Shown here piece after piece: positions 21,601 to 64,000 of a DNA stretch of 64,000 nt (positions are counted from its first letter, which is position 1; every line of letters begins with the position of its first letter). The notes under the pieces are model-generated. The model made no database searches, had not been told where the DNA came from, and was given only the letters and a program-made list of their open reading frames with translations. The stretch lies in contig OX597820.1 of NCBI GenBank assembly GCA_951406725.2, positions 94,488,001-94,552,000 on the forward strand, written 5' to 3'. The DNA comes from Octopus vulgaris (lineage: Eukaryota). Position numbers and translations under genes: made by a program.

Positions 21601-23695
21601 ATAGCTTTAATCTTGTCACAGAATGGTATGATTTGTTCAACTGCTCCATATTCTCCAAAACCATGCATAACTATAATTATTTGCTTTTCAATTATAAACC
21701 AATATAATAAAACTAGGTTTGCTAAAAGCAATCTATAAACACAAGTTTCAATATTATTTTAATATTTGCGACAATGTGCAAAATCTACACTTACGTGCGT
21801 GAAATTTTGTAACTACTTAAATTCATACTTTGTAACTTTGTAATTTTTATTATTATTTACTCTCTTGAAAATAATTTCATTGATGATTACAATAAGAGTT
21901 CTTGATGAAATAAATCTTTCACAAACTGGATGAGATTACTTCACTTACAATCTTTCTGGAAAACTCTATATTTCATGCCATTCGCATGACCGTAAATGCT
22001 TTATCATCAGCATTTCAATCAATCATTCACCTGAATCTTACTTCTTCCACAATTTTCAGTTCTCCCTCTGCTTAATTACCGTAAATATATTATCATTATC
22101 GGGTTTCTGTTCTATTTATTATACTAACCACTTCTGAAACTAAGACAGTATATCCATGCCAGTTATAAATATTTTTTGAAGGCTATGTTTGTGATGCATG
22201 TAATCTTCTATAGCTCGAAGTTCAATCATTGATTTACAATAAATTATACATCAATATTTTCCCTAAAGTAACATATAACATTCTTTAAAATAACTTTCAG
22301 ATATGTATCAATATATAGCAGCATAAATCAATATTTATTGCCTGACAACATTTCATAATATTTACATTTTAAACCATAAATAATTTCGTATTTTATAATA
22401 GTTCGTAATGAAACTATAAATTGCTGCAAATATGGTCACAGCAATTTTGTGGGGGATCTACTCCATCGTTTACATGAACTCAGATATTTTAACGTCTACG
22501 ACAGGAGGTAATGCAATGATAATCTCGGCAGCATTTCAACGCATACCGAAGGGGAGAGATGACGACCTGCTTAAGAATTTGATAGACCTGTTAAAGATTC
22601 TGCCAGGTTGTTAGCCCTAAGAACTATGAATAAAACGATGAATATTATAATTATAAGAATCTTTGAATATTAACATAATTATATATAAGCATTATTTACC
22701 GTTTTTAACTCCATTAGTACTGGTTACGCCTAGAAATATATAAAATACATATTATTATAGAAAGTATATCGGATTGCAAAGTCATTTTTCATAATAGATA
22801 TTATGAATATACAATATATCCTTTAATGCTTGCTCTAATAACATCTTCAATGGCATGCTTTCCTTTCATCTCGAGATGAGAAAATATCTGGTTTCCAATG
22901 AAAATCTTTTTAATGAATTAATGATCCTATCAGCACTATTTCAATGGCAAGGACATAGGTTTTTTAAGGTTATTTACCTTATCTTAAACATCGCAAAAAA
23001 TACACACGCAATATATTATAGTTATTTAATATAGAATAAATATTATTAGATTTGTAATTACTTAATTTGGATTATATGGAAGACATGACATCAATACCTA
23101 TTGGTTGGCAATATTTCATAATATTTACATTTTAAAACAAATATTTTCGTATTAGCATAATAGTTCGTAATGAAATTGAGAATTGCTTTAAATATCACAG
23201 CCCACCAGACTCAAGACACAAGAAATATTTTCTCAAATTGCTGCAGGATTTTCTTTCTTTCTTTTTTTAAATATCATTGAGTGAATGACTGCTTCCCACA
23301 CATTGTGCGACGCTAGATTCATGAGAAATATTTAAACCTTTCACCAAAATCCAATGAGTGTGAGAACACACCTTGCTGCCATGCTCCTGTACTAGAAATA
23401 GAAATGCTTGCATTCGGAAACGCCATTCTTAATACCAAAGGATAGACAGTGTTTACAGAGTGCAGTTTTTCTTCCTTTCAGAGACATGATGTCAATGTAA
23501 ATAATAGATATTATTAAAGACAACGTGTGTAATGTACGTAATTTACTGTTCCACGTAGTTTTCCCTAATTTCAAATATTGATTTATAATAAATTGCACTT
23601 CAGTGCTCTAACCAAAACGCCAGTTAACTTTCTTTTAAAGTAATTTTCAGCTAGGTATTAATATATAGCAACATACATTGATACTAATTGTTTGG
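12680..23695. repeat. Degenerate tandem array of a ~1.75-kb unit (about 8 full or partial copies)
   Basis: The marker gaaactgagacatcatatccatgtca recurs near 12748, 14481, 15808, 17547, 19297, 20270, 22138 and ~23480; intact periods are about 1733, 1739 and 1750 bp. Confidence 0.92.
14078..14281. repeat. Near-perfect 102-bp tandem duplication inside an array unit
   Basis: acattaca..gggattagatt starts at 14078 and again at 14180. Confidence 0.9.
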
Positions 23696-24304
23696 TATTG
23701 CTTAAAATAATTCCGTACAAGGCCAGGAAGAATGAGAGGTAGCGACGTGAGACAGAGTACAGAGAAATAGAGCTCGTTTGAATGGATAATTTTAATGTTG
23801 TGAGAGAACGAACATTTTTTTCATTTTCCTGCAAGTTCTTTCTTCACAGATGCCACTGTGCGAATATCCGGTTCCAAATAGTACATTATGTCTTGTAGGA
23901 ATCATTAGAATATTTTGAGATTTTATATTAGCAAGAGTATGCTATCTTAATCCTCATAATGTTTTAAGGAACACACCTTGCTACTGCGTTTCTGTACAAA
24001 GTTTTTTTCCATGGATTCATTCCCTTCCTAACACCATCGGGTATACTAATTCATTTTATCACAATTTTTCTTGGCACCAGTGAAATAGTTTGCCTCGTCT
24101 TAGTCATACCTCAAAAGTCCTCGCATCCCTGCATGGTCTTTGCTCGAACTTTGAACATTTCGCAGCTGATACAGATTACACTTTTTACCTGTCACAAGCG
24201 CTTTGGAGTTTGTCTCACCTTCTGCAACACGATTCTGGCGTGTGTACTGGGTGCTTTCTCCCGTTGTGTGTGTTTGCTGAAATTGCTGAGCGGAGTGACA
24301 ATCA

Positions 24305-27130
24305 TGTCATGAAAAACTGCAAAAACTATGGAAAGAAGCCACAAAGCGGGAAGAAGAAAAATCCATAAAAATGTGGGAAAAACAACAAGAGTGAGTCACT
24401 AACTATGAAGAAAACCATGGAGACAAATGCATAATGAAAACGAAACCACAACAACACGAAGAAATCGAAAACAAACTTAGACACTAACCCCAGAAGAACC
24501 GAACTGAGGTAACGAACCTCTAATTACCCAAGAACATACGCGGAAATGACCCCTGTCTCACCCCAAGTACAGACCAGAAACCTATATTCTACAATGCATA
24601 ACACTGCAAATATCCAACACATGAAATATAGAAGACGACTATCAACCCATAAGTCCACACACCATAGATGGATAAATAAAAAGAAAAAAGGGCATGAAAG
24701 GCAAATAACATACAGACAACCACCAACCGGTAATAAAAGATGGAAGAGAGAGACAAATAAAATACAGACAGCACGGGTATTATAATAGGAATAATAATCA
24801 TCATCATAACTCAAGCAACCCACGATTTACGACCAAAATTTCCATATATCCTGAATGGCGAAAAGAGCATGGAGGAAGGGAAGAAAACAAAACTTATAAC
24901 CAGCGGAATTCATATAAAAGATATGAACCATCCTCCCACTTACATGGAAACCAGAACGCCGAGATCAGAAAACGGAGACATAGTGACAAAATTCCATTTT
25001 TAGGGAGGAAATACTAAAATAACACACCGGACCCGATAATACACAAAATTTAAATGAACACACACACAACATATAGACCCGAAGATCATAAATAAATTTG
25101 TCAAACGAGAATGAGATGATCCTCCTATTAAAATGTTTCAAGTTTACCCCGACACCTACACCTAATCTCATAGAACTGGAATCTGATACTGAACACTTCA
25201 ACCGCCACCTCCGACTTATAGAATTCTTCAACAACAAAGATTTAAATGATGAATAATAGTCAGAAATAAATCCCACTTCATCCGCTACAAGGGAAAGGAT
25301 AAATATTTAGACTTATATATAGGCACGATTTAAAAATTTCCCCTAAATACCCACAGATGCAAACAAAACCTTCGTGAAGAAGAAAAGGAAGCCTTACAAA
25401 CACTGAAGAATGACATCTCAGTCATCCTAAAAGAAAAAAACAATAATGAATAAAATCAGGAGACTAATCAATGAATTCCAAGATTCCTTCACAGACAAGG
25501 AGAAATATTATATATGCAGCCCTGTAATCAAAGAGAGTAATTTCTACGGATTACCCAAAATCCACAAAAGCTCCGAAATACAAAGTGCCATAAAGAAGAA
25601 GAACCAATACGTAAAAATACTAAGGCCTTCTGACCTCAAACTAAGACCAATAGTTGCTGGAAATCAAGCACCAACACAACAACTAAGTCATTTTTTGGAT
25701 ATACTCCTAAAACCTTTGTAGCTTTTAATACCCAATTATGTACATGATGGCATAGATTTCATCCAACACATCCCTTCCACTGTCGCAGAAGGTACTATAC
25801 TCACAAGTTTTGATGGCACCAATCTCTATACTAATATACCTCACACTTTAGGCCTAGAAGCAATCAAATACCGGGTAGAAGAACACAGAGAACGGATAAA
25901 TGAACGTTTCAACACTGACTTCATCACCAAGGCCACACACCTAGTACTAGAGGAAAATACCTTTAGATTCGACAATGAAACATATCGACAAAAAAGGGCA
26001 CGGCCATGGGTACGCGGTTTACGATCTCATATGCAAACTTAGTAATGGGATACTTGGAAGAAAAACTTTATGAGGAAGTAGAAAAAACTTTTGATCAGGA
26101 GTTCAAGAAATATATTAAAAAGTGGAAACGCTTCCTTGATGATTGCTTCATCTTCTGGGACAAATCGAATGAAGATCTAAATATATTTAACAATATACTG
26201 AACACACTTGACCCATTCATCTAATTCACGACAGAATCCATTTGCAATGAACTACCATTCCAGGATATCCATATAAAAATACAGAACTCCACAGTCACAA
26301 CAAACATATTTTATAAAACACCGACACCAACCAATATTTAAATTTCTACTCTTGCCATAGACGCATCTGTGCTATAATGACTGACCCCAAAATACGTGAG
26401 ATCCGACTCAACGAAATCAAAGGCTTCCCCACAACACAGAAATACCCCTTAGGATTAATTAATGAGGGGATTAAAAAAGCGATGGAACTGAATATCACAC
26501 ATCTACGGATACCTAAGGAAAAAGTTAATGAAAACACGATTCCGTTCATTAACACACACAGTCCTGGAATGACCATCTTCCACAAACTTACCTGTACTCC
26601 TACAAAGACCCAAAATGAAAAATCTGATTGAAAAAAAACACCTTACGGAATAGCAGATGCCAACCAAAAAATCTTGAACAACACCTCACAAGGGCAGAAT
26701 TCAAATCAGAGAATGAATCTGAATTCTTAGTAAAAGAATGTGGAGTTAGAAGATGTGGAACACGCAACATCAACAACTTCAAATACTTGGAAAGGGGTTC
26801 TTACATAAAATTCAAAAGCGGATCCCTTTTCAAAATGCAGACATGAACTGCAAAAGGCAAAACCTCATATACTGCATTACCTGCCCAAACTGCTAAGAAA
26901 ATTACATTGGTGAAACAAATAATTCCCTCTGCCAACGTGCAAGAATCCACAGGCAACATATCCGACAAGAGGAATTACGCAAGATTCCATTAAGTAAGCA
27001 TCTGGAAATATGCAGCCTCCAAAAGTTAAACATTTTTCCCTTTTACAAATGTGCACGGGACGATCTGCATTACTGAAAAGCAATGGAACTAGATTTCATC
27101 AAAAATTCTCTCCAAAATTGAATGTTTGAA
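24305..27130 (+). mobile_element. Decayed Penelope-like retroelement (RT + GIY-YIG)
   Basis: NFYGLPKIHK..LRPIVA, SFDGTNLYTNIP, GTAMGTRF..YANLVMG, WKRFLDDCFIFW and NLIYCITCPNC*ENYIGET, broken by stops and frameshifts. Confidence 0.93.
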
Positions 27131-27243
27131 GGTAAAGTCGAGAATTTGAATACTTTATACCAAATGTGGTACATCTCTACAAATGTTCAGATATATGTGT
27201 GTAGCATTGGGATGTTTTAGATTTACGTATATATATACATACA

Positions 27244-27297
<54 letters not shown>

Positions 27298-27298
<1 letters not shown>

Positions 27299-27570
27299 GA
27301 ATACAAAAATGGGGCATCCAGACAGTTAGATGATACAAAAAGAGACAAGAAAAAACAAGGAGGAGTCATTCCTCAGTCGAGTTCCAGATTATTTTTGCAG
27401 TTTCGTCGAGTATAACCAGCCGAAACTGAAAAGATAATCTGGAACTCGACTGACGAAAGAAAACTCCGAATGAACCGTTTTTGTTTTTCTCTTGTCCCTT
27501 TTTGTATCATCTAACTGTCTGGGTGTCTTGTTGTCGCCGGTTGCGTTCTTGTCCCATTTTTTTGTATTTT
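27298..27570. mobile_element. Foldback (palindromic) element; mirror at about 58260-58532
   Basis: ccagacagttagatgatacaaaaa / tttttgtatcatctaactgtctgg and tcagtcgagttccagattat..cagtttcg / cgaaactg..ataatctggaactcgactga around a centre near 27413. Confidence 0.8.
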
Positions 27571-27604
27571 TTATATAGCTATAGCGGCATGCGTGCACTT
27601 TGGG

Positions 27605-27651
<47 letters not shown>

Positions 27652-27717
27652 CTTAGTGTGTACCGTTGGCGATTTTTTTCCTCTGTCTTCCCTTCTCTGG
27701 ATCTTTCCTTCTCCTAT

Positions 27718-27752
27718 GTTTCCGACGAAGAGCTCCGCTCGAAACGTTAAAC
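27718..27752 (+). ncRNA. Minimal type-I hammerhead ribozyme-like motif in a ~200-bp element (27655-27852)
   Basis: gttt-CCGACGA-a-GAGC-tcc-GCTC-GAAAC-GTT-aaac: stem I gttt/aaac, stem II GAGC/GCTC, core differs from CUGANGA at position 4. Confidence 0.65.
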
Positions 27753-27852
27753 CCTCCTTCTTTCCTTCTTCCCTGAGCGTCCAATAATACTATATTTGTT
27801 CCACGTCCTCGCGTTGTTGTGTGTTTTTTTGTGCTTTCTTGTTTGGATTAAC

Positions 27853-27885
<33 letters not shown>

Positions 27886-28250
27886 TTTTTTAGCATATTT
27901 TATTTGTTGATTGATTTTTTAAATTGTTAATTTGCAAATATTATACTAATATTTTTTAATGCAGAACTACATTTCATCAAGAAATTCCCTCCAAAAATGA
28001 ATGTTTGGAAGGGGTAACAGGACATTTTGTATTCTAAATATAAATTTTATTTGACAAGTTCGAGAATAATGAACAAGCTGTTTTTCCAAAATTCTGACGA
28101 CTTTTTTCTCAAAACATATATATATATATAAGCAATAATAAATCTCTGAACGACACGACAATGTGAAGTATATTTGCCATTTAAATGTGGCTAACCACTA
28201 AGAGAGGATGCTACTGTAGCTTGTAGCCCCAGGAGAACATCTCCAGTTGG

Positions 28251-28338
<88 letters not shown>

Positions 28339-28499
28339 GAAGCAGATCATACTCAGTCCAACCAGGCACAAAAATGGCCAGGACCTCTGGACAGAACTGA
28401 CAATGTATGGCCCGGAATTAACTAAAGATAAACTCCGCACAGATGGCTAACCAAGGATCAGTATTAAGGAATGAGAGTCTGTTGTTAGGGTACGCATAT

Positions 28500-29386
28500 A
28501 TGTATATTATTTATATTATATGAGTGAACGCCACGCATCCATTTCCAAGTAAGTTTTATCTTAATAATCCTGATGCAACATTATTCTATCACTATCTCTA
28601 TTTCTCTCTCTCTCTTCCTCTTTCTATATTCTTTTTATCTTTCCTTTTTTCTCTCTCATCCTTTCTCTAATTCTTCTCCTCCTCCTTCACCTTTCTCTAT
28701 CTGCCCCTGTCTCTCCCTCACTCTTCCTCCTTGACTCTATCGTTGCTCACGCGTGACCAGCGGCCATCTTTCTTCTCCTAACTCGAATTTCTTTCTTTCT
28801 TCTCGTTCAGCTACAGGGATAGCATGAATTTTTGTCTGTCACTTGTCAAAGCTTGTTTCTCCAGCGTTCATCACTTTTCCTCATTATGGCTTAACAGCCC
28901 TTACCGTTTGTTTTTACTGTCCTGCTTTTGTTACCAATTTTGACCCTCCGCAAATCCCAAATTTTATTAAATTTGCTTTGCGGGAGCAACTGTTTTGACG
29001 AAGACGCATCTTGTCCTAATGCTCGAAATGCGAAGTAGAAAAAGCAGTGAACAACTGATGAAGGGATTGTTCTTTATGTTGCCTGTCTTGTTTTTCTATT
29101 TGTTTCTTTCGTTGTTCGCAAAAAAGTTCGTTTTCCATGTTTTTGTTTTTCATATTCTATCTCATGTTGTTTACGTTTTTTTTACGGCTTATGCATGTGT
29201 ATATATATATATATATAAGTATGTACAGGAGTGGCTGTGTGGTAAGTAGCTTGCTAACCAGCCACATGGTTCCGGGTTCAGTCCCACTGCGTGGCATCTT
29301 GGGCAAGTGTCTTCTGCTATAGCCCCGGGCCGACCAATGCCTTGTGAGTGGATTTGGTAGACGGAAACTGAAAGAAGCCTGTCGTA

Positions 29387-29418
<32 letters not shown>

Positions 29419-29690
29419 ATGCATGTGTGTGTGTGCTTGTGTGTCTGTTTGTCCCCTTAGCATTGCTTGACAACCGATGCTGGTGTGTTTACGTCCCCGT
29501 CACTTAGCGGTTCGGCAAAAAAGACCGATATAATAAGTACTGGGCTTACAAAGAATAAGTCACGAGGTCGATTTGCTCGACTAAACGCGGTGCTCCAGCA
29601 TGGCCGCAGTCAAATGACTGAAACAAGTAAAAGAGTAAAAAAAGTAAAGAGTATATGATTAAGCGCCCTACATCCATTTCCAAGATACTT
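28500..29690 (+). mobile_element. Pyrimidine-rich element with partial terminal direct repeat (pLTR-like); mirror at about 53655-54440
   Basis: tatatga...cgccacgcatccatttccaag occurs at ~28517-28548 and again, imperfectly, at ~29652-29684. Confidence 0.45.
29227..29651 (+). mobile_element. SINE family B, left arm only
   Basis: ggagtggctgtgtggtaagtagc...gaaacaagtaaaagag; absent from the mirror site at ~53690-53735. Confidence 0.9.
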
Positions 29691-29763
29691 TGGTGAATGG
29701 AGCTAGCTATGTACTGGATGATGATTGGTGATATTCCCCGTTCAGATGTGGTGGGGCAGAATA

Positions 29764-30502
29764 TACAGTGTTCCGAAATTAAGACAACATAAGTTTCAGG
29801 CTTCAATAGCTATCTTTAAATGTGATAAGATATGAAAATTATACATCATTATAAAAGCTTCGTGTGTTTTCTTTGTGTTTCAGTCAATATAAATTCACAC
29901 TTTGGAGTGTATCTGGTTCCGTCGAACTTTGGAGTGTATCTATCTGGCTCGTAAATCGACGTCAAAATCAAGTTAGTTATGGTTTGGGCGACTGTGACAG
30001 CCACTGAAAGGTCTTCCTTCGTTTTTTGTGCCATCGTGAGTTAAAATTAACAACTAGCGATTCATTAGTGATATTCTGGAAGCTGAACAGCTTCCATGGG
30101 TGAATGTACACTTTCAAGATGCACCTTGGCGCCTCCAATAGGACTCGGCACCATCCCACAGCTTCAAACAGACAAAACAATATTCCGTCGTTCATAGGCA
30201 AGGATGTATGGCCCTCAAAAAGCCCCGATCTCAATCCGTTGGATTTTTCTGTCTGGTTCATGCTCGACACTGCGCTAGGAATGGATTTCGATTCTGCAAG
30301 AACAGTTGCTTACCATATGTGAACCATTTGCACTTCGATTTAAGGCCGTGATTCGAAACAGAGGTGATCATATCGAATAAATGTGGTATTGTCATAATTG
30401 TGTTTCCTTTATGATTGTACTGCAATGCTAGATGCGAAATACAACAATATTTTACTTTGACAAAATTGAAAAAATTGGTTGCCTTAATTTTGGGTCACCC
30501 TA
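29764..30502 (+). mobile_element. Internally deleted Tc1/mariner (maT/DD37D-like) DNA transposon; mirror 52815-53556
   Basis: TIRs TAcagtgttccgaaattaagacaac / gttgccttaattttgggtcacccTA; transposase motif FIGKDVWPSKSPDLNPLDFSVW. Confidence 0.85.
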
Positions 30503-30779
30503 TGCTTGTGTATAGTTTGACCCCAAAGTCTCAGGCAGAGAAGCACAGCATCTGTAATGGACTAAGAAGAAAGATATTGAAAGGGTTCCAATCGGCAACG
30601 AAAGAACTTTGACAAACAAAAACAAAACCAATGTATCAATGTTTAACCAAATCAATCAAACAATCGATTAGTTTGTTGGATATGCAACCAATTGACTAAT
30701 AATAAATTGAACTAGTGGAATTGAACCAGTGAATGTGTTAATAGTATTAGCATAATGACTCTTCCTAGATACAACAATA

Positions 30780-30895
30780 TATACACACATACACACATAC
30801 ACACAAGCACACACACACACAAGCACACACACACACAAGCACACACACACAAGCACACACACACAAGCACACACACACACAAGCACACACACACA

Positions 30896-30945
<50 letters not shown>
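30780..30945. repeat. (CA)n/(CACAAG)n and (CT)n microsatellites
   Basis: Direct reading; shorter mirror at 52405-52530. Confidence 0.95.
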
Positions 30946-30946
<1 letters not shown>

Positions 30947-31075
30947 GCACACATATATACGCACACATGCATTCAAACATATATATCAAAACCTGGGAGA
31001 AGGTAGGCGTGGCTGGAACAAGGGACACTATGGAGGGTGTAATGGCGCTTCGGCATAGCGAAGCAGTTCCTTAAC

Positions 31076-31690
31076 AACTGTATGTGTAAGCTATGTCATG
31101 TTTCTGTGGAAGACATCACGCATGTGATTAGCAGCTGTCCTAAAATGTCATCACGATACTACCTCCCTATGCAGCACGATGTTGTTGCTAAAACAATTTA
31201 CAATGCCATCCGCAAAAAAGAATGTCCTGAAATAAACTTAGAAAATCCCTCTGTTATGGAATACATTCACAAACAACAACTTAAGGAAAACTGGTGGAAT
31301 ATTCCCATCAAAACTTCTGTCAAATGTAAACATTAACAGGTCAGATATTGTTGTTTGGGTATGTACCGTCATAGAAGTCAGATGCCCTGCAGATATAAAT
31401 ATTTCTCTGAAAATCAAAAGAAAAGAAGATATATATGGACATATATATCATCTAGCTCTATATTCATAATCATACCAATAATAATTGGAGCACTAGGAGA
31501 ATCTGAATAAACAGGGATTTTCAGAAAGAGAAATCGACCGGCTAATTCGTACATTACAAGTGCAACTTGTGACTGGAAGAGTAAAAATATGCAAGACTTT
31601 TCTCAAGTTCCAAATGTGAATTTATCTGTGTTAACTACACCCCAAAGATGGAGTCATGTATCTTTGTTGGAAACCGGCTACCTCCCCAAT
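31076..31690 (+). mobile_element. 3' fragment of RLE-type non-LTR retrotransposon (Dong/R4-like); mirror about 51500-52274
   Basis: CCHC knuckle CKLC...EDITHVISSC, HDVV, WWNIPI, SDIVVW..IEV; the mirror also keeps EGYAFAIQEQ. Confidence 0.85.
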
Positions 31691-32034
31691 GGAAGATTTA
31701 TGATAATTCAGAAATAGAAGAGACAGACATACATACATGCATACATGCATACGTACATACATTCTCAATATGGAAAATACTTAGCACTCAAATGATTTGA
31801 ATTTACACTCCGAAATTTTTATCAGGGACGGAGTCCACGAAGTAATGGGTGGCTATGAGAGAAATTCAGGTGAGCAGATAAGGATACAATGATGTATGTA
31901 TGCATGTATTTATGTATGTACGTACATATATAGATACATGTATATGCTAAACTGGTAACACGATCTCTCTTTTTCCATCTCTCTCTCTCCCTATATATAA
32001 ATATATGTATGTATGTATCTCCCTATATATATAA

Positions 32035-32067
<33 letters not shown>

Positions 32068-32080
32068 TGTATGTGTGTAC

Positions 32081-32111
<31 letters not shown>

Positions 32112-32440
32112 TGTATGTATGTATGTATGTATGTATCCATATCTGTAATAGAAAGTGCTAGTTTAGTGAAATAGTAAAAAAAATAGTATATCACACGATA
32201 CTCACATGAAACTATGGCCACAACGACGATGAGAAGATATATAGTCTTCATGATGTTTACTTAAGAAAGTCAACGATCACAATAAAGCGGAGACTAATTT
32301 TTTTCTTATATATATATGTTCAGTGTTATCAAAGTGTTGATATAACTAAGATTATTGCTATTGGTTACGTAAGTTCTTCTGTACGAAATACTTTCCGGGG
32401 GATACAGAATTAGTTATAAACAAACAAATAAATAGTGTTT

Positions 32441-32483
<43 letters not shown>

Positions 32484-32534
32484 AACTACTACTACTACGA
32501 CTACTACGACTACTACTACTACTCCTACTACTAC

Positions 32535-34670
<2,136 letters not shown>

Positions 34671-34681
34671 TTAGGTGATTA

Positions 34682-52402: not shown

Positions 52403-52435
<33 letters not shown>

Positions 52436-54494
52436 TGTGTGTGCTTGTGTGTGTGTGTGCTTGTGTGTGTGTGCTTGTGTGTGTGTGTGCTTGTGTGTGT
52501 GTGTGCTTGTGTGTGTGTGTGAGTGTATGTGTGTATATATTGTTGTATCTAGGAAGAGTCATTATGCTAATACTATTAACACACTCACTGGTTCAATTCC
52601 ACTAGTTCAATTTATTATTAGTCAATTGGTTGCATATCCAACAAACCAATCGATTGTTTGATTGATTTGGTTAAACATTGATACATTGGTTTTGTTTTTG
52701 TTTGTCAAAGTTCTTTCGTTGCCGATTGGAACCCTTTCAATATCTTTCTTCTTAGTCCATTACAGATGCTGTGCTTCTCTGCCTGAGACTTTGGGGTCAA
52801 ACTATACACAAGCATAGGGTGACCCAAAATTAAGGCAACCAATTTTTTTTTCAATTTTGTCAAAGTAAAATATTGTTGTATTTCGCATCTAGCATTGCAG
52901 TACAATCATAAAGGAAACACAATTATGACAATACCACATTTATTCGATATGATCACCTCTGTTTCGAATCACGGCCTTAAATCGAAGTGCAAATGGTTCA
53001 CATATGGTAAGCAGCTGTTCTTGCAGAATCGAAATCCATTCCTAGCGCAGTGTCGAGCATGAACCAGACAGAAAAATCCAACGGATTGAGATCGGGGCTT
53101 TTTGAGGGCCATACATCCTTGCCTATGAACGACGGAATATTGTTGTGTCTGTTTGAAGCTGTGGGATGGTGCCGAGTCCTATTGGAGGCGCCAAGGTGCG
53201 TCTTGAAAGTGTACATTCACCCATGGAAGCTGTTCAGCTTCCAGAATATCCCCAATGAATCGCTAGTTGGTAATTTTAACCCACGATGGCACAAAAAACG
53301 AAGGAAGACCTTTTAGTGGCTGTCACAGTCGCCCAAACCATAACTAACTTGATGTTGACGTCGATTTACGAGCCAGATAGATACACTCCAAAGTTCGACG
53401 GAACCAGATACACTCCAAAGTGTGAATTTATATAGTCTGAAACACAAAGAAAACACACGAAGCTTTTATAATGATGTATAATTTTCATATCGTATCATAT
53501 TTAAAGATAGCTATTGAAGCCTGAAACTTCTGTTGCCTTAATTTCGGAACACTGTATATTCTGCCCCTACCACATCTGAACGGGGAAGATCACCAATCAT
53601 CATCCAGTACATAGCTAGCTCCATTCACCAAAGTATCAAGGTAACTATAGATTGAACTATCTTGGAAATGGATGCGTGGCGCTTAATCATATAATAATAT
53701 AAATAACATATATATGCATATATACATACATGTACATACTTACATATATATGTATATACACATGCATAAGCCGTAAAAAAAAACGTAAACAACATGAGAT
53801 AGAATATGAAAAACAAAAACATGGAAAACGAAAGAAACAAATAGAAAAACAAGACAGGCAACATAAAGAACAATCCCTTCATCAGTTGTTCACTGCTTTT
53901 TCTACTTCGCATTCCGAGCATTAGGACAAGATGCGTCTTCGTCAAAACAGTTGCTCCCGCAAAGCAAATTTAATAAAATTTGGGATTTGCGGAGGGTCAA
54001 AATTGGTAACAAAAGCAGGACAGTGAAAACAAACGGTAAGGGCTGTTAAGCCATAATGAGGTAAAGTGATGAACGTTGGAGAAACAAGCTTTGACAGGTG
54101 ACAGACAAAAATTCATGCTATCCCTGTAGCTGAACGAGAAGAAAGAAAGAAATTCGAGTTAGGAGAAGAAAGATGGCCGCTGGTCACGCGTGAGCAACGA
54201 TAGAGTCAAGGAGGAAGAGTGAGGGAGAGACAGGGGTAGATAGAGAAAGGTGAAGGAGGAGGAGAAGAATTAGAGAAAGGATGAGAGAGAAAAAAGGAAA
54301 GATAAAAAGAATATAGAAAGAGGAAGAGCGAGAGAAATAGAGATAGTGATAGAATAATGTTGCATCAGGATTATTAAGATAAAACTTACTTGGAAATAGA
54401 TGCGTGGCGTTCACTCATATAATATAGATAATATACATATATGCGTACCCTAACAACAGACTCTCATACCTTAATACTGATCCTTGGTTAGCGA

Positions 54495-55450
54495 CTGAAA
54501 AACAGCTAAGCACAGCTCCTCCACCCATAGCTTCAAAATATATTGTTCACAAGAACTCAACCTTGTCACACAATATGAAAATTAGTATACTAATCGTAGA
54601 CTTAGGATAAAGAATAATTTGTTCCCCCTATGCGAACCTTATGTAACAAAGAGACATGTACAGAACTTCATGCACAACATGCAATTCTCTGAATACAACC
54701 AGAAAGATGGGATTCGAATATACAGGGGAGTCAGTTAAGAAATTAGATATATGTAATGATACCAGTGGTACCTGTCGTAGATACCGAAATAAAGACTGGA
54801 ATAGTATACCGAGGATTTGTGACGAAGCAAACAGATTGAACATATTGTAAAAGGCTGATAAGTACAAAGTGTGATGTCTATAGAGGCTACACCTCATGGA
54901 GAATTAGCCCGTAGATTTAGGAAGGTTATGAAGGACACCAAATTCAACATTAAATCACTCAGAAACTAGGGAGCTGCATCAGATCATATTTATGTAGGGC
55001 GTACACCTTCGAGAATACCACATGCACTAATGAAAATTGTGCAGTATGTAACCTTAACCCCAGTATTAACTATAAAACTAGGAACGTGGTCTACAACATA
55101 GGGTGCATGGAAAGAGTTTGTAAGGACAGAAACACGGCATACATTGCGGAGACTTCTAGGAGTATAGCGGAGAGACTAAACATGCATTGGAGAGAGTATA
55201 ACGACAAGACACTGTCATTCATACTCTATCAACATGACAAAGACCAACACGGCGGCAACCTGGGCCGAATTGAAGTCCAGAATTGAATTCCGAATTGAAG
55301 TCCAGACACCCAAAGGACCAATCACTTATACAATTACAAGAATACGTCCTCATAAATGATGCATTACCTATACTTAACAGGAAATACACGTAGAAGGTAG
55401 GGATACCCCAATGCCACAGATATCACCCATACAGCGTAAATGCATAGGTA
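54495..55450 (+). mobile_element. Penelope-like element 3' fragment (GIY-YIG), right arm only
   Basis: VVYNIGC..C...YIAETSRSIAERLNMH; upstream LNIL*KADKY-like segment. Confidence 0.75.
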
Positions 55451-55599
55451 CATTCGTAAGTAGGCAGTCAAGTTGGTAATTAGTTTGGTTGGTAGTTAGG
55501 TAGGTAGGTAAGTAGGTAGGTAGGTAGGTGTAGGTAGGTGGGTAGGTAAGTAGGTTGGTGGGTAGCATGCACACACATCACGCAACAATATCTCAAGCA

Positions 55600-57530
55600 G
55601 AGAAAGGCCGCCTCCGTAACGGACTAAGAAAGTTATTGAAAAGTTTGAAAGTAGCAACGAAAAATCTTTGACAAACAAAAACAAATCAAGTTCCACAGTT
55701 TGTTTCACACTATCTGGGGACCATACTTAGGAGCAGTATTCCAAGCGGCTGAGAACGAAAGTCTTCCATAGGTGTAGCAGGGCCTTCCTTTTCCTGGTTC
55801 TGAATGTCCTCAGAGTCCAGCCAGTCAGCCACTCGCCTGCACAGTGTTGCCATCTTGGTAATATGCACATAGAATGTTGCATAATTGCTCATGTGAAGCC
55901 GCACCGACTCTGACTCTGGGATCGTATTACCTTCTGGCCCAGTGTATTCCGGTATTGGACCGATAGTGGAGTGCCTGAAATTTCATAGCATTGAATTGCA
56001 TACTATATTTGTTAGCCCATTTGTAGATTTCATTCAGGTATTTTTGAAGTTTTATGATGTCTTCTGGGTTCCTTATTACTTGCGATACTTTTGTGTCGTC
56101 AGCATAACCGGTCAGATTGGCTGATTGTACGGTGGAGAGTATGTCTGAGAGGGCTACCGTCAATAGTAGTGTCCCCAGTACAGTTCTCTGTGGGACTAAG
56201 CTGCAAATTGGCTACAACTGTCTGACTCCTGACTACAACTGTCTGACTCCTGCTCTTCAGAAAGTCATGAAGTCACTCTCCCAGTTTCTCGGCAATACCA
56301 AGGATTCGCAGCTTGTGACATATCATCCCATGATCAACCTGGTCGAAGACCTTGGTAAAGTCGAGGTATATCACGTCTAGAGCTAACTGGTTTAGCTATT
56401 GCTTCAGTATCCAGTCAAAGTGCTGCAGCAACTGTGTGAAACAGCTCCTCCCTGGACGGAAGCCATGTTACGTGTTTGTGAGAAGGTTGTTTTCTTCTAG
56501 GAATGTGATCAGCCTTTTTCTAACAATACGTTCCATTGTCTCGCTAACATGTGAGGACAAAGAGATGGGACTGTAGTTTTTAGCATCTGCTCTGCTCCCT
56601 ACCTCATGGACAGGACATATTAAACCCTCTTTGTTCATGTTGGGAAGTTTACCATATGCAAGGAAACTCTGAAAGAGTATCTGCAGTAGCTTTGCAAGAG
56701 CCTTTTTACATGTCTTTAAGAGAACAGACGGGAGTCCATCTGGGCCTGTTGCTGAGTTTGATCTCATCTCATCAATGGCCGATATTACATACTCTTGTGT
56801 TATGTCGATGTAATCAATGGTTGCCTCTTTTCCGAATATATTCATTACATAGAAAACTCCTTCGGCTTGTTTATTTGCATATTTTCCAGTGGAGGAGTGA
56901 AAACACTTCGGAATTGTTTATTTAGTGCTTAACTCATTCTCTGGGTCTGCGGTTAGTGAACCGTTCTTAGCAAATTGTGGTCCTAACTTATATCGTGCTG
57001 AGTCAGACTACTTTGACAACGTGTAGAAGACTTTAGGATTTCTTTTTATATTTTCGAATGTCCAGATATGTCTTTCTTCTCTTTCTTTTTCATGGGAAAT
57101 TTTGAGTTCATTTTCTATATCGAGGAGTTCCTCTGTCAAGTGAGATTTCACACGGTTATTAAGGTGTTTGTTTAAATGATTCGAGATCGTTATTCTCCGC
57201 CGCAGGTGTATTCTCCTGTTTCGGGGAATGATGTTTTTGTGTGTATTGGTTCCCCTCTCAGGGACATATTTAATGCGTATGACTCGCATAATTGACATTA
57301 ATTTATTGAGTTTCACATCTATGTCATGCATAGAGATGCTTTTAGTCCAGTCTTGCTGGAGTATTTGTTTTTCAACTTACTTCCAGTCAGCCTTATAGAA
57401 ATTTAGGCTCGATAGGGTTTGAGCGCCATCTGTGCGGAGTTTATCTTTAGTTAATTCCGGGCCATACATTGTCAGTTCTGTCCAGAGGTCCTGGACATTT
57501 TTGTGCCTGGTTGGACTGAGTATGATCTGC

Positions 57531-57535
<5 letters not shown>
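55600..57535 (-). mobile_element. Decayed CR1/L2/Jockey-group LINE ORF2 fragment, mostly right arm only
   Basis: SLNFYKADWK, NIKRNPKVFY, NSATGPDGLPSVLLK, NYSPISLSSHVSETMERIV, GYADDTKV. Confidence 0.88.
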
Positions 57536-57599
<64 letters not shown>

Positions 57600-58090
57600 A
57601 GCCAACTGGAGATGTTCTCCTGGGGCTACAAGCTACAGTAGCATCCTCTCTTAGTGGTTAGCCACATTTAAATGGCAAATATACTTCACATTGTCGTGTC
57701 GTTCAGAGATTTATTATTGCTTATATATATATATGTTTTGAGAAAAAAGTCGTTAGAATTTTGGAAAAACATCTTGTTCATAATTCTCGAACTTGTCAAA
57801 TAAAATTTATATTTAGAATATAAAATGTCCTGTTACTCCTTCCAAACATTCATTTTTGGAGGGAATTTCTTGATGAAATGTAGTTCTGCATTAAAAAATA
57901 TTAATATAATATTTGCAAATTAACAATTTAAAAAATCAATCAACAAATAAAATATACTAAAAGAATACATACATACATATATATATATAGTTAATCCAAA
58001 CAAGAATTCACAAAAAAAACACACAACAACGCGAGGACGTGGAACAAATATAGTATTATTGGACGCTCAGGAAAGAAGGAAAGAAGGAGG

Positions 58091-58125
58091 GTTTAACGTT
58101 TCGAGCGGAGCTCTTCGTCGGAAAC
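58091..58125 (-). ncRNA. Mirror copy of the hammerhead-like motif
   Basis: Exact reverse complement of 27718-27752. Confidence 0.65.
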
Positions 58126-58528
58126 ATAGGAGAAGGAAAGATCCAGAGAAGGGAAGACAGAGGAAAAAAATTGCCAACGGTACACACGAGGTCACACACA
58201 CACACATATATATATATATGAGAGTCCAAAGTGTACGCATGCCGCTATAGCTATATAAGAAATACAAAAAAAATGGGACAAGAACGCAACCGGCGACAAA
58301 AAGACATCCAGACAGTTAGATGATACAAAAAGGGACAAGAGAAAAACAAAAACGGTTCATTCGGAGTTTTCTTTCGTCAATCGAGTTCCAGATTATCTTT
58401 TCAGTTTCGGCTGGTTATACTCGACGAAACTGCAAAAATAATCTGGAACTCGACTGAGGAATGACTCCTCCTTGTTTTTTCTTGTCTCTTTTTGTATCAT
58501 CTAACTGTCTGGATGCCCCATTTTTGTA

Positions 58529-58583
<55 letters not shown>

Positions 58584-58697
58584 GAATGTATGTATATATA
58601 CGTAAATCTAAAACATCCCAATGCTACACACATATATCTGAACATTTGTAGAGATGTACCACATTTGGTATAAAGTATTCAAATTCTCGACTTTACC

Positions 58698-61600
58698 TTC
58701 AAACATTCAATTTTGGAGAGAATTTTTGATGAAATCTAGTTCCATTGCTTTTCAGTAATGCAGATCGTCCCGTGCACATTTGTAAAAGGGAAAAATGTTT
58801 AACTTTTGGAGGCTGCATATTTCCAGATGCTTACTTAATGGAATCTTGCGTAATTCCTCTTGTCGGATATGTTGCCTGTGGATTCTTGCACGTTGGCAGA
58901 GGGAATTATTTGTTTCACCAATGTAATTTTCTTAGCAGTTTGGGCAGGTAATGCAGTATATGAGGTTTTGCCTTTTGCAGTTCATGTCTGCATTTTGAAA
59001 AGGGATCCGCTTTTGAATTTTATGTAAGAACCCCTTTCCAAGTATTTGAAGTTGTTGATGTTGCGTGTTCCACATCTTCTAACTCCACATTCTTTTACTA
59101 AGAATTCAGATTCATTCTCTGATTTGAATTCTGCCCTTGTGAGGTGTTTTTTAAGATTTTTTGGTTGGCATCTGCTATTCCGTAAGGTGTTTTTTTTCAA
59201 TCAGATTTTTCATTTTGGGTCTTTGTAGGAGTACAGGTAAGTTCGTGGAAGATGGTAATTCCAGGACTATGTGTGTTTATGAACGGAATCGTGTTTTCAT
59301 TAACTTTTTCCTTAGGTATTCGTAGATGTGTGATATTCAGTTCCATCGCTTTTTTAATTCCCTCATTAATTAATCCTAAGGGGTATTTCTGTGTTGTGGG
59401 GAAGCCTTTGATTTCGTTGAGTCGGATTTCACGTATTTTGGGGTCAGTCATTATAGCACAGATGCGTCTATGGCAAGAGTAGAAATTTAAATATTGGTTG
59501 GTGTCGGTGTTTTATAAAATATGTTTGTTGTGACTGTGGAGTTCTGTATTTTTATATGGATATCCTGGAATGGTAGTTCATTGCAAATGGATTCTGTCGT
59601 GAATTTGAAGGATGGGTCAAGTGTGTTCAGTATATTGTTAAATATATTTAGATCTTCATTCGATTTGTCCCAGAAGATGAAGCAATCATCAAGGAAGCGT
59701 TTCCACTTTTTAATATATTTCTTGAACTCCTGATCAAAAGTTTTTTCTACTTCCTCATAAAGTTTTTCTTCCAAGTATCCCATTACTAAGTTTGCATATG
59801 AGATCGTAAACCGCGTACCCATGGCCGTGTCATTTTTTGTCGATATGTTTTATTGTCGAATCTAAAGGTATTTTCCTCTAGTACTAGGTGTGTGGCCTTG
59901 GTGATGAAGTCAGTGTTGAAACGTTCATTTATCCGTTCTCTGTGTTCCTCTACCCGGTATTTGATTGCTTCTAGGCCTAAAGTGTGAGGTATATTAGTAT
60001 AGAGATTGGTGCCATCAAAACGTGTGAGTATAGTACCTTCTGCGACAGTGGAAGGGATGTGTTGGATGAAATCTATACCATCATGTACATAATTGGGTAT
60101 TAAAAGCTACAAAGGTTTTAGGAGTATATCCAAAAAATGACTTAGTTGTTGTGTTGGTGTTTGATTTCCAGCAACTATTGGTCTTAGTTTGAGGTCAGAA
60201 GGCCTTATTATTTTTACGTATTGGTTCTTCTTATTTATGGCACTTTGTATTTCGGAGCTTTTGTGGGTTTTGGGTAATCCGTAGAAATTACTCTCTTTGA
60301 TTACAGAGCTGCATATATAATATTTCTCCTTGTCTGTGAAGGAATCTTGGAATTCATTGATTAGTCTCCTGATTTTATTCATTATTGTTTTTTTCTTTTA
60401 GGATGACTGAGATGTCATTCTTCAGTGTTTGTAAGGCTTCCTTTTCTTCTTCACGAAGGTTTTGTTTGCATCTGTGGGTATTTAGGGGAAATTTTTAAAT
60501 CGTGCCTATATATACGTCTAAATATTTGTCCTTTCCCTTGTAGCGGATGAAGTGGGATTTATTTCTGACTATTATTCATCATTTAAATCTTTATTGCTGA
60601 AGAATTCTATAAGTCGGAGGTGGCGGTTGAAGTGTTCAGTATCAGATTCCAGTTCTATGAGATTAGGTGTAGGTGTCGGGGTAAACTTGAAACCTTTTAA
60701 TAGGAGGATCATCTCATTCTCGTTTGACAAATTTATGATCTTCGGGTCTATATGTTGTGTGTGTGTTCATTTAAATTTTGTGTATTATCGGGTCTGGTGT
60801 GTGATTTTAGTATCTTCTCCATCAAAAAGGAATTGTGTCACCATGTCTCCGTTTTCTGATCTCGGCGTTCTGGTTTCCATGTAAGTGGGAGGATGGTTCA
60901 TATCTTTTATATGAATTCCGCTGGTTATAAGTTTTGTTTTCTTCCCTTCCTCCATGCTCTTTTCGCCATTCAGGATATATGGGATTTTTGGTCGTAAATC
61001 GTGGGTTGCTTGAGTTATCATGATGATTATTATTCCTATTATAGTACCCGTGCTGTCTGTATTTTATTTGTCTCTCTTCCTATGTATTCATCCATCTAGG
61101 GTACATGTTATTTTCGGTTGGTGGTTGTCTGTATGATATTTGCCTATCATGCCCTTTTTCTTTTTATTTATCCATCTATGGTGTGTTGATTTATGGGTTG
61201 ATGGTCGTCTTCTATATTTCATGTGTTGGTTATTTGCAGTGTTATGCATTGAAGAATATATATTTCTTTATTACCCACACGGGGCTAAACATAGAGAGGA
61301 CAATCAAGGACGGACAAAGGAATTAAGTCGATTGCACCGTCCCCAGTGCGTAACTGGTACTTAATTTATCGACCCCGAAAGGATGAAAGGTAAAGCCGAC
61401 CACGGCGGAATTTGAACTCAGAACGTAACGGCAGACGAAATACGGCAACGCATTTCGCCCGGCGTGCTAACGTTTCTGCCAGCTCGCCGCATTGTAGAAT
61501 ATAGGTTTCTAGTCTGTACTTGGGGTGAGACATGGGTCATTTCCGCGTATGTTCTTGGGTAATTAGAGGTTCGTTACCTCAGTTCGGTTCTTCTGGTGTT

Positions 61601-61792
61601 AGTGTCTAAGTTTGTTTTCGATTTCTTCGTATTTCTTCGTGTTGTTGTGGTTTCGTTTTCATTATGCATTTGTCTCCATGGTTTTCTTCATAGTTAGTGA
61701 CTCACTCTTGTTGTTTTTCCTACATTTTTATGGATTTTTCTTCTTCCCGCTTTGTGGCTTCTTTCCATAGTTTTTGCAGTTTTCATGACATT
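58698..61792 (-). mobile_element. Mirror copy of the Penelope-like element, interrupted by a SINE
   Basis: ORFs 60107-60382, 59487-59822, 59197-59451 and 58982-59200 mirror the left-arm frames. Confidence 0.93.
61261..61490 (-). mobile_element. Young SINE family A insertion with 15-bp TSD, right arm only
   Basis: Flanked by gcattgaagaatata (61246-61260) and gcattgtagaatata (61489-61503); the left arm has a single empty site near 24583-24597. Confidence 0.92.
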
Positions 61793-64000
61793 GATTGTCA
61801 CTCCGCTCAGCAATTTCAGCAAACACACACAACGGGAGAAAGCACCCAGTACACACGCCAGAATCGTGTTGCAAAAGGTGAGACAAACTCCAAAGCGCTT
61901 GTGACAGGTAAAAAGTGTAATCTGTATCAGCTGCAAAATGTTCAAAGTTCGAGCAAAGACCATGCAGGGATGCGAGGACTTTTGAGGCATGACTAAGACG
62001 AGGCAAACTATTACACTGGTGCCAAGAAAAATTGTGATAAAATGAATTAGTATACCCGATGGTGTTAGGAAGGGAATGAATCCATGGAAAAAACTTTGTA
62101 CAGAAACGCAGTAGCAAGGTGTGTTCCTTAAAACATTATGAGGATTAAGATAGCATACTCTTGCTAATATGAAATCTCAAAATATTCTAATGATTCCTAC
62201 AACACATAATGTACTATTTGGAACCGGATATTCGCACAGTGACATCTGTGAAGAAAGAACTTGCAGGAAAATGAAAAAAATGTTCGTTCTCTCACAACAT
62301 TAAAGTTATCCATTCAAACGAGCTCTATTTCTCTGTACTCTGTCTCACGTCGCTACCTCTCATTCTTCCTGACCTTGTACGGAATTATTTTAAGCAATAC
62401 CAAACAATTAGTATCAACGTATGTTGCTATATATTAATACCTAGCTGAAAATTACTTTATTAGGGAAAACTACATGGAACAGTAAATTACGTACATTACA
62501 CACGTTGTCTTTAATAATATCTATTATTTACATTGACATCATGTCTCTGAAAGGAAGAAAAACTGCACTCTGTAAACACTGTCTATCCTTTGGTATTAAG
62601 AATGGCGTTTACGAATGCAAGCATTTCTATTTCTAGTACAGGAGCATGGCAGCAAGGTGTGTTCTCACACTCATTGGATATTAGTGAACAGTTTAAATAT
62701 TTCTCATGAATCTAGCGTCGCACAATGTGTGGGAAGTAGTCATTCATTCAATGATATTTAAAAAAAAAAGAAAGAAAGAAAATCCTGCAGCAATTTGAGA
62801 AAATATTTCTTGTGTCTTGAGTCTGATGGGCTGTGATATTTAAAGCAATTCTCAATTTCATTACGAACTATTATGCTAATACGAAAATATTTGTTTTAAA
62901 ATGTAAATATTATGAAATATTGCCAACCAATAGGTATTGATGTCATGTCTTCCATATAATCCAAATTAAGTAATTACAAATCTAATAATATTTATTCTAT
63001 ATTAAATAACTATAATATATTGCGTGTGTATTTTTTGCGATGTTTAAGATAAGGTAAATAACCTTAAAAAACCTATGTCCTTGCCATTGAAATAGTGCTG
63101 GTAGGATCACTAATTCATTAAAAAGATTTTTATTGGAAACCAGATATTTTCTCATCTCGAGATGAAAGGAAAGCATGCCATTGAAGATGTTATTAGAGCA
63201 AGCATTAAAGGATATATTGTATATTCATAATATCTATTATGAAAAATGACTTTGCAATCCGATATACTTTCTATAATAATATGTATTTTATATATTTCTA
63301 GGCGTAACCAGTACTAATGGAGTTCAAAACGGTAAATAATGCTTATATATAATTATGTTAATATTCAAAGATTCTTATAATTATAATATTCATCGTTTTA
63401 TTCATAGTTCTTAGGGCTAACAACCTGGCAGAATCTTTAACAGGTCTATCAAATTCTTAAGCAGGTCGTCATCTCTCCCCCTTCGGTATGCGTTGAAATG
63501 CTGCCGAGATTATCATTGCATTACCTCCTGTCGTAGACGTTAAAATATCTGAGTTCATGTAAACGATGGAGTAGATCCCCCACAAAATTGCTGTGACCAT
63601 ATTTGCAGCAATTTATAGTTTCATTACGAACTATTATAAAATACGAAATTATTTATGGTTTAAAATGTAAATATAATGAAATGTTGTCAGGCAATAACTA
63701 TTGATTTATGCTGCTATATATTGATACGTATCTGAAAGTTATTTTAAAGAATGTTATATGTTGCTTTAGGGAAAACATTGATGTATAATTTATTGTAAAT
63801 CAATGATTGAACTTCGGGCTATAGAAGATTACATGCATCACAAACATAGCCTTCAAAAAATATTTATAACTGGCATGGATATACTGTCTTAGTTTCAGAA
63901 GTGGTTAGTATAATAAATAGAATAGAAAGCCGATAATGATAATATATTTACGATAATTAAGCAGAGGGAGAACTGAAAATTGTGGAAGAAGTAAGATTCA

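What the first reader, a model, noticed from the sequence alone, without database searches (positions are those of the whole stretch)
22032..64000. Giant (>42 kb) genomic palindrome with ~20-kb arms and a 2.4-kb spacer
Seen: 22032-41363 is the reverse complement of 43746-64000 and the match reaches the window edge. Substitutions and reciprocal indels (including a SINE with TSD in one arm only) argue for a real, aged duplication. Established: large palindromes are unstable unless maintained, as on mammalian sex chromosomes by arm-to-arm conversion. Inference: the arms hold fragments of at least five TE clades, so read-through would give a huge multi-TE hairpin RNA, a candidate endo-siRNA/piRNA or ADAR-substrate locus.
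Basis: partly seen in the sequence, partly recalled or inferred. Interest (0 to 1): 0.85.

Follow-up and report, generated by a model that had tools for sequence, protein, structure and literature searches.

The report
Transposon-bridged fold-back duplication in octopus
The giant palindrome is the centre of a 284-kb rearranged stretch of an octopus chromosome that holds three copies of one segment and two broken copies of a gene's tail; it likely arose when a DNA break at a small transposon folded back, and its arms are not kept identical, so it is probably an ordinary complex duplication rather than a maintained, functional palindrome.

Summary
The inverted repeat is real in the assembly but larger than reported: the arms run about 71 kb each (window -29,708..41,363 against 43,746..114,955) around a 2,382-bp spacer. 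A third, direct copy lies at about 137.6-216 kb, inside a gap-free 284-kb region with a 2-3-2 copy profile. The paired arms differ evenly by 1.56%, so they are not homogenised, except the inner 1.3 kb (0.27%). Arm A is 0.34% from the third copy. The centre is a fold-back junction: one 481-bp monomer of a young (TA)n-targeting repeat joins the arm through 10 bp of microhomology. The outer edge cuts an intron of a 7-CUB membrane-protein gene. Copy A is intact, and both extra copies carry only 3' exons with stop codons, which argues against mis-joined haplotypes. One short-read run shows arm:spacer depth 1.50 (1.49 predicted); it may be the source animal. No read across the junction was seen. The order of events is inferred, and part of the arrangement could be a mis-join. 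The hairpin-RNA idea is untested. Verdict: new member of a known kind, modest interest.

The parts
1..41363 (+). Window part of arm A (whole arm -29,708..41,363). It lies downstream of, and partly within, the intact 7-CUB gene, whose last exon ends at about -733.
12695..23693 (+). Degenerate tandem array of about 1.7-kb AT-rich units: about 11 kb here, about 9 kb in A', about 37 kb in the third copy. Found only at this locus; no protein match.
40060..41363 (+). Inner tract where A matches A' (3 differences in 1,127 sites) and the third copy is the outlier (15 in 1,127). The lineage switch lies between 39994 and 40080.
41354..41363 (.). Fold-back junction J1: 10-bp microhomology (AAAATTCATA on the minus strand) shared by the end of the repeat monomer and the arm.
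41352..41834 (-). One 481-bp monomer of a young (TA)n-associated repeat family; 5 mismatches in 481 to its nearest fetched copy; absent at the same (TA)n of the second spacer copy.
41835..41922 (.). (TA)n tract, the landing site of the monomer.
41923..43745 (.). Genomic part of the spacer, continuous with arm A' in three other runs. A second copy, 1.0% diverged and inverted, lies at 216,062-217,977.
43746..64000 (-). Window part of arm A' (whole arm 43,746..114,955), the inverted copy. Beyond the window it carries gene exons for aa 495-856 with two stop codons.
54493..57426 (-). Broken LINE with reverse-transcriptase remains, in A' but not in A.
58700..61200 (-). Broken Penelope-like element (RT motifs by eye, weak GIY-YIG hit), shared by both arms.
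61252..61494 (.). SINE-like insertion with an 8-bp target-site duplication, in A' only.

Best explanation
The palindrome is the centre of a 284-kb complex segmental duplication (copy profile 2-3-2, three gap-free junctions) that was likely built in several steps, its centre likely formed by a DNA break folding back through a small transposon. Shown: the order is U a b | TE s b' a' c' | b s' Y c D. Junction J2 (114,950) has 6 bp of microhomology, J1 has 10 bp, and J3 (about 137.6k) enters a (TG)n tract with 1 bp shared. The extra copies hold dead 3' gene fragments. Inferred: (1) an older tandem duplication of the roughly 110-kb unit made J2 and the lineage now 1.5-2.2% diverged; (2) a break at the (TA)n tract, at or after insertion of the repeat monomer, let the 3' end pair 1.9 kb back on its own strand and copy the arm in reverse; (3) an exchange near 40.0k between inverted copies swapped partners, so that A now faces the old copy while its near-twin lies about 150 kb away. 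The structure most likely does nothing and decays neutrally.
For: Block map and no N. Junction sequences. Three-way sites outside the array: 320 private to A', 40 to A and 44 to A'' of 23,781, with a reciprocal switch near 40.0k. A-A' 363 of 23,283 sites; A-A'' 100 of 29,052. All 7 A-only segments tested are also in A''. Copy A has no amino-acid difference from P0002 in 8 of 8 exon cores; A' has 2 stops among 8 changed codons of 347; A'' has 1 stop in 230 codons. In X1, spacer depth is 193.6 and arm depth 291.3, ratio 1.50, against 1.73:2.58 = 1.49 predicted from the assembly's k-mers. X2, X4 and X5 each have one contig across the spacer|A' join, which marks it as the ancestral join. Spacer size and microhomology resemble human fold-back duplications: spacers of 766-70,466 bp, median 3,428, with 2-8 bp microhomology (PMC3907307, passages).
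Against: No contig across J1 was listed in any of 4 runs; the tables were cut, so this is not absence. J2 and J3 were not tested in reads. X1 may be the source animal. The 3:2 ratio also fits one haplotype with two arms plus one haplotype with a single arm. The left 5 kb of A'' is about 1.4% from both A and A' (private sites 32, 33 and 19 of 3,694) and has its own stop, which a single young fold-back does not explain: J3 is probably older than J1, or A and A'' were homogenised later. A-A'' differences are patchy (variance/mean 3.67), as alleles or conversion tracts would be. The simple fold-back geometry also needs a spacer flip. In X4 the five outer-arm depths (10-17) are below the spacer contig (18.4), and in X5 they are about equal, so the extra arm may be absent there.
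Confidence: 0.62

Rival explanations
1. The duplications are real but the assembly has the arrangement partly wrong. The reciprocal switch near 40.0k (45.1k and 214.7k) is a mis-join between similar copies, or the middle 45 kb of the third copy comes from the other haplotype. The true palindrome would then pair A with its near-twin.
For: The switch is exactly reciprocal and falls at the edge of a SINE. A-A'' divergence of about 0.3% is patchy and similar to the 0-0.3% between the window and the X2, X4 and X5 contigs at 42531-44537 (0, 3 and 6 differences in about 2,007 bases).
Against: A real crossover between inverted repeats gives the same reciprocal pattern. A'' has its own stop codon and an independent left end. 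There is no gap near either switch.
Confidence: 0.2
2. An old palindrome kept by selection and arm-to-arm conversion, which makes a long hairpin RNA (endo-siRNA, piRNA or ADAR substrate).
For: The intact gene and the A' fragment both point towards the centre, so any read-through across the spacer would be self-complementary. The inner 1.3 kb is near-identical. Patchy A-A'' identity could be conversion between former partners.
Against: The arms differ evenly by 1.56% with many TE-sized indels, against more than 99.9% identity in Y palindromes (PMC3723533, abstract). The second gene copy is a dead fragment. Read-through of about 44 kb past AATAAA sites at -700 and -619 would be needed. No Rfam match reached its gathering score at 39.5-45.5k (0 of 22 weak matches).
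Confidence: 0.08
3. A pure artefact: the two haplotypes of a single-copy region were placed side by side and partly inverted.
For: Segments a, c and the spacer are each present twice, as two haplotypes would be.
Against: Segment b is present three times in three distinct versions. Both extra copies lack the gene's 5' half and carry nonsense codons. J2 has 6 bp of microhomology and no gap. X1 depth shows an extra arm.
Confidence: 0.05
4. A single replication accident with serial template switches between homologues made all the junctions at once (a DUP-TRP/INV-DUP-like event).
For: The 2-3-2 profile with an inverted middle copy; microhomology at the junctions; a 12-bp tandem duplication about 25 bp from J3.
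Against: The copies differ by unequal amounts: 0.3%, 1.0-1.6% and 2.2%. A' has gathered two stops and several TE insertions since its split. There are three junctions, not two.
Confidence: 0.05

Closest known systems
Fold-back inverted duplications with a spacer (Hermetz et al. 2014, PMC3907307; passages read)
   Same: Inverted copies separated by a spacer of a few kb, with short inverted microhomology at the junction; some junctions carry inserted DNA.
   Different: This one is interstitial and sits in an assembled animal chromosome, not beside a terminal deletion. The microhomology comes from a transposon monomer. The arms have since diverged or swapped partners.
DUP-TRP/INV-DUP rearrangements (Grochowski et al. 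2024, PMC11293582; passages read)
   Same: Duplication-triplication-duplication profile with inverted segments and several possible haplotype orders.
   Different: Three microhomology-type junctions instead of one junction in an inverted low-copy repeat pair plus one microhomology junction; unequal ages point to several events.
L1-bridged fold-back inversions in tumours (Rodriguez-Martin et al. 2020, PMC7058536; passages read)
   Same: A mobile-element piece bridges two head-to-head copies whose ends lie a few kb apart (5.5 kb there, 1.9 kb here).
   Different: The bridge is a non-coding 481-bp (TA)n-associated monomer, not L1. No breakage-fusion-bridge amplification is seen, and it is likely germline.
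Mammalian sex-chromosome palindromes (Hallast et al. 2013, PMC3723533; abstract read)
   Same: Arms of tens of kb around a short spacer; spacer inversions are possible.
   Different: Arm identity is 98.4%, not above 99.9%; there is no intact gene pair; sex linkage was not tested.
Foldback and TA-targeting transposons: Tetris, Galileo, MuTAnT (PMC4079207, PMC2775673, PMC4486113; search listing and start of abstract only)
   Same: Inverted arms, insertion in TA microsatellites (MuTAnT), a link to chromosome inversions (Galileo).
   Different: The octopus element has two fixed but different outer ends (monomer positions 1 and about 97) and a strand switch at a different place in each copy. No transposase or partner element was identified.

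Membership tests
Sex-chromosome-type maintained palindrome | Arms longer than 10 kb around a short spacer | tested here: met
   About 71-kb arms and a 2,382-bp spacer
Sex-chromosome-type maintained palindrome | Arm-to-arm identity above 99% | tested here: not met
   688 differences in 40,208 sites (1.71%) over the outer arm, and 363 in 23,283 (1.56%) over -4.9k..40k
Sex-chromosome-type maintained palindrome | Ongoing arm-to-arm gene conversion | tested here: inconclusive
   Even divergence between A and A' except the inner 1.3 kb; patchy near-identity between A and the third copy
Sex-chromosome-type maintained palindrome | Intact gene copies in both arms | tested here: not met
   A' holds only aa 495-856, with two stops
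Sex-chromosome-type maintained palindrome | Location on a sex chromosome | not tested
   Contig C7 (128.55 Mb) is unnamed; no male-female depth data were used
Fold-back inverted duplication | Unpaired spacer of about 1-70 kb, continuous with one arm | tested here: met
   2.38 kb; contigs of X2, X4 and X5 cross the spacer|A' join. A second spacer copy lies about 170 kb away
Fold-back inverted duplication | Inverted microhomology between spacer end and start of the inverted copy | tested here: met
   10 bp
Fold-back inverted duplication | Adjacent deletion | tested here: inconclusive
   About 410 bp (Y) next to the second spacer copy has no counterpart at the centre; no large deletion is visible
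Fold-back inverted duplication | Origin from a resected double-strand break | not testable with these tools
   Inferred from junction anatomy only
DUP-TRP/INV-DUP | 2-3-2 copy profile with an inverted middle copy | tested here: met
   a twice, b three times, c twice
DUP-TRP/INV-DUP | Two junctions made in one event, the first inside a pre-existing inverted repeat pair | tested here: not met
   Three junctions with 10, 6 and 1 bp shared; unequal divergences
Retrotransposon-bridged fold-back inversion (L1 type) | Mobile element between head-to-head copies | tested here: met
   481-bp monomer of a genome-wide family at J1
Retrotransposon-bridged fold-back inversion (L1 type) | L1 sequence or poly(A)-tailed insertion | tested here: not met
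   The monomer is flanked by (TA)n and shows no poly(A) tail; its class is unknown
Hairpin-RNA / endo-siRNA locus | One transcript through both arms, with small RNAs or editing | not testable with these tools
   No RNA run could be laid on arm-unique sequence
Tolloid/BMP1 proteases (the name a source gives P0002) | Astacin protease domain | tested here: not met
   Pfam finds 7 CUB stretches and no astacin domain in the 856-aa P0002. The C-terminal membrane span is read by eye. The isoform may be incomplete at its N end

The most novel reading that the evidence does not exclude
An undescribed, young octopus mobile element, made of 481-bp monomers that land in (TA)n tracts and usually switch strand during insertion, can let its nascent strand jump onto nearby chromosomal DNA instead of onto itself. 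It thereby seeds heritable fold-back duplications of tens of kb: a germline, non-L1 counterpart of L1-bridged fold-back inversions, caught here after copying the tail of a CUB-domain gene.
Probability: 0.3. Interest if true: 0.55.

Novelty: new member of a known kind. Interest (0 to 1): 0.3.

Why it matters
The case shows that a large diverged palindrome in an assembly need not be an old, maintained palindrome: divergence between the arms can predate their pairing. It gives a base-resolved complex duplication in a cephalopod with three PCR-testable junctions. If the junction monomer caused the fold-back, it points to a small (TA)n-targeting element as a source of structural variation in a TE-rich genome; only 1 of 11 copies examined sits at such a centre, so the effect is rare at best. 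The gene and its inverted fragment both point towards the centre, which makes the locus a cheap place to look for read-through double-stranded RNA in animals with heavy A-to-I editing (recalled, from no call). Nothing here shows such RNA.

Tried and rejected
RNA: no RNA holder listed among 24 runs; this says nothing about expression.

J1 in independent data: no bridging contig appeared in the cut tables of 4 laid runs, out of 20 holders. Inconclusive.

The 1.7-kb array as a gene cluster: 0 Pfam families in 18 frames. No copy outside this locus by DNA or by two protein pieces. No codon-phase signal: lag-3 0.069 against 0.057-0.067 for other lags; indel lengths mod 3 were 39, 111 and 17 for remainders 0, 1 and 2. 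0 hits in 1.84 billion proteins with a 6-sequence, 88-position profile.

Other genes: I scanned 149 frames against Pfam, 145 of them from the 311 candidates plus 4 added. Five had hits: four TE domains and one CUB exon. Most candidates in segment c (L021-L025) and in L013 were not scanned.

The element as a recurrent cause of inverted duplications: 0 of 10 other copies had inverted flanks within 10 kb, apart from one 246-bp repeat-sized match; the window control gave 7,317 bp.

Known structured RNA at the centre: 22 weak Rfam matches, none at gathering score.

An older paralogue of the spacer at 239.7-242.4k: set aside, because much of the match is the same repeat families.

Earlier findings of the scan: none near this place.

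Literature: searches listed no paper on this locus or this element. The library is partial, and no supplements or repeat databases were examined, so the element may already be catalogued.
Full report
Observation. The window is G000:C7:94,488,001-94,552,000 in a 2.80-Gb, 227-contig genome. Self-BLAST and a global alignment confirm that 22032-41363 is the reverse complement of 43746-64000, with a 2,382-bp spacer and indels in both directions. The SINE-like insertion with an 8-bp target-site duplication in one arm is at 61252-61494. Pfam supports a LINE reverse transcriptase and, below cut-off, GIY-YIG, RVT_1 and zf-RVT remains.

Extent. I added 200 kb upstream and 400 kb downstream; the 664 kb hold no N. 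In window coordinates arm A is -29,708..41,363 and arm A' is 43,746..114,955. A third copy, A'', lies in direct orientation at about 137.6k-216,061 and is followed by an inverted second copy of the spacer. Segment 114,950-137.6k is repeated, inverted, at 218.4k-254,552. Let a be -29.7k..-10.6k, b be -10.6k..41.4k, s the genomic spacer and c 218.4k-254.6k. The order is then U a b | TE s b' a' c' | b s' Y c D, so a and c are present twice and b three times.

Junctions. J2 (114,950) joins the start of a to the end of c with 6 bp of microhomology. An old LINE runs across the U|a boundary, so that side is ancestral. J3 (about 137.6k) joins the start of c to a (TG)n tract at -10.6k with 1 bp shared and a 12-bp tandem duplication about 25 bp away. 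J1 is the palindrome centre. Window 41352-41834 is one 481-bp monomer of a genome-wide repeat, 5 mismatches in 481 from its nearest fetched copy. One end sits in a (TA)n tract; the other meets the arm through 10 bp shared by monomer and arm. The second spacer copy has the (TA)n but no monomer. Of 22 family copies fetched from the best-scoring loci, 17 switch strand internally. None of 10 copies tested has inverted flanks within 10 kb.

Relationships among copies. Outside the tandem array and simple repeats, 23,781 sites align in all three copies: 320 changes are private to A', 40 to A and 44 to A''. A and A' differ at 363 of 23,283 sites (1.56%), evenly (variance/mean 1.24 per kb); A and A'' differ at 100 of 29,052 (0.34%), patchily. 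All 7 A-only segments tested are present in A''. Of 4 A'-only segments, 2 are absent from A'', 1 is mostly absent and 1 was not resolved. Near 40.0k the pattern flips: in 40,060-41,363 A differs from A' at 3 of 1,127 sites and from A'' at 15. The two spacer copies differ at 18 of 1,779 sites and the two c copies at 258 of 11,679. The left 5 kb of A'' is about equally far from both other copies. So the visible partners are not homogenised, and A' and A'' look like reciprocal recombinants at about 40.0k.

Gene content. A Pfam scan of 149 frames found one non-TE hit, a CUB exon at -4,413..-4,171. It is 98% identical to P0002, named by its source a tolloid-like protein 2 of Octopus sinensis; the animal is therefore an octopus, and I did not determine the species. 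P0002 has 7 CUB stretches and no astacin domain. Its exons run from -70k to -733 on the + strand, and the duplication edge lies in an intron at about aa 495. Copy A matches P0002 without an amino-acid change in 8 of 8 exon cores. A' carries aa 495-856 in inverted orientation with 8 changed codons of 347 (4 silent, 2 missense, 2 stops); A'' carries aa 614-856 with 1 stop in 230 codons. Both extra copies are thus dead fragments, which is hard to square with their being the other allele. The 1.7-kb array inside the arms is confined to this locus and shows no coding signal or homologue.

Independent data. Twenty-four runs were listed, 20 of them holders; I laid 4 on 40000-48500. In X1 the spacer contig has depth 193.6 and the inner-arm contig 291.3. 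The assembly's k-mers predict 1.73 and 2.58 copies, giving about 112 per copy for both. X1 thus has one extra arm per two spacers. X1 may be the source animal, and the ratio does not say how the copies are spread over haplotypes. X2, X4 and X5 each have one contig across the spacer|A' join. At 27 listed variant sites checked, 22 carry the letter of A and A'', 4 the letter of A'' in the spacer or inner arm, and 1 neither; 115 variant rows were not shown. X4 and X5 are mosaics of the two types, and their depths show no clear arm excess. No contig across J1 was listed, but the tables were cut.

Mechanism. Shown: the copy profile, the junction sequences, the unequal divergences and the dead gene fragments. 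Inferred: an older tandem duplication made J2. A break at the (TA)n tract, with the monomer at its end, then folded back on 10 bp of microhomology 1.9 kb away and copied the arm in reverse, as in the fold-back model (PMC3907307, passages) and in L1-bridged fold-back inversions (PMC7058536, passages). A later exchange between inverted copies, or an assembly mis-join, swapped partners. This history needs a spacer flip and does not explain the older left end of A'', so I give it 0.62. The rivals are a partly mis-ordered assembly (0.2), a maintained hairpin locus (0.08), a pure haplotype artefact (0.05) and a single template-switching event (0.05).

Comparison and verdict. It works like a fold-back inverted duplication inside a DUP-TRP-DUP-like region (PMC11293582, passages), but it fails strict DUP-TRP/INV-DUP membership. 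It also fails the sex-chromosome palindrome tests of arm identity and intact gene pairs (PMC3723533, abstract). Four paper searches listed nothing on this locus or element; supplements and repeat databases were not seen. It is a new member of a known kind, interest 0.3. The boldest reading not excluded is a (TA)n-targeting, strand-switching element that seeds germline fold-back duplications (probability 0.3, interest 0.55).

Noticed in passing
window 41352-41834; L095-L116: A young repeat family of 481-bp monomers (1,778 first-look candidates, 40 scored). Of 22 copies fetched from the best-scoring loci, 17 switch strand at a different place each. By eye all 22 touch (TA)n at one end and 19 at both; 3 end at the monomer end as ours does. 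Class unknown.
   Followed up: partly
window -70k..-733 (L039-L045): An intact-looking gene for a protein with 7 CUB domains and a hydrophobic C-terminal stretch, matching P0002. Weaker relatives lie on C13, C5 and C4. Its 5' exons were only located, not checked one by one.
   Followed up: partly
window 94.6k, 100.4k, 141.6k (L009, L013): 3 of the 9 changed codons in the duplicated exons are nonsense, all to TAG. That is more than neutral change would usually give, but the sample is tiny.
   Followed up: no
window 12.7-23.7k, 62.4-71.6k, 161.5-198.2k: A locus-specific 1.7-kb tandem array whose length differs about fourfold between copies, with 4.5-kb higher-order repeats in the third copy. The units read like a long-dead secreted or membrane protein but have no homologue.
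   Followed up: yes
window 164,306-165,531 (L016): A helicase-like open frame resembling a Helitron by eye, inside the third copy's array only.
   Followed up: no
window 389,074-390,135, minus strand (L058): A 354-aa open frame that looks like a single-exon class A GPCR (adenosine-receptor-like by eye), outside the duplication.
   Followed up: no
window about 218,000 and 87,529: A short piece next to the (TA)n of the second spacer copy resembles the edge of the 6.2-kb insertion in A', suggesting a second (TA)n-seeking element.
   Followed up: no
window 232.7-236.1k (L022/L023): A 3.4-kb local inverted repeat of simple sequence within segment c.
   Followed up: no
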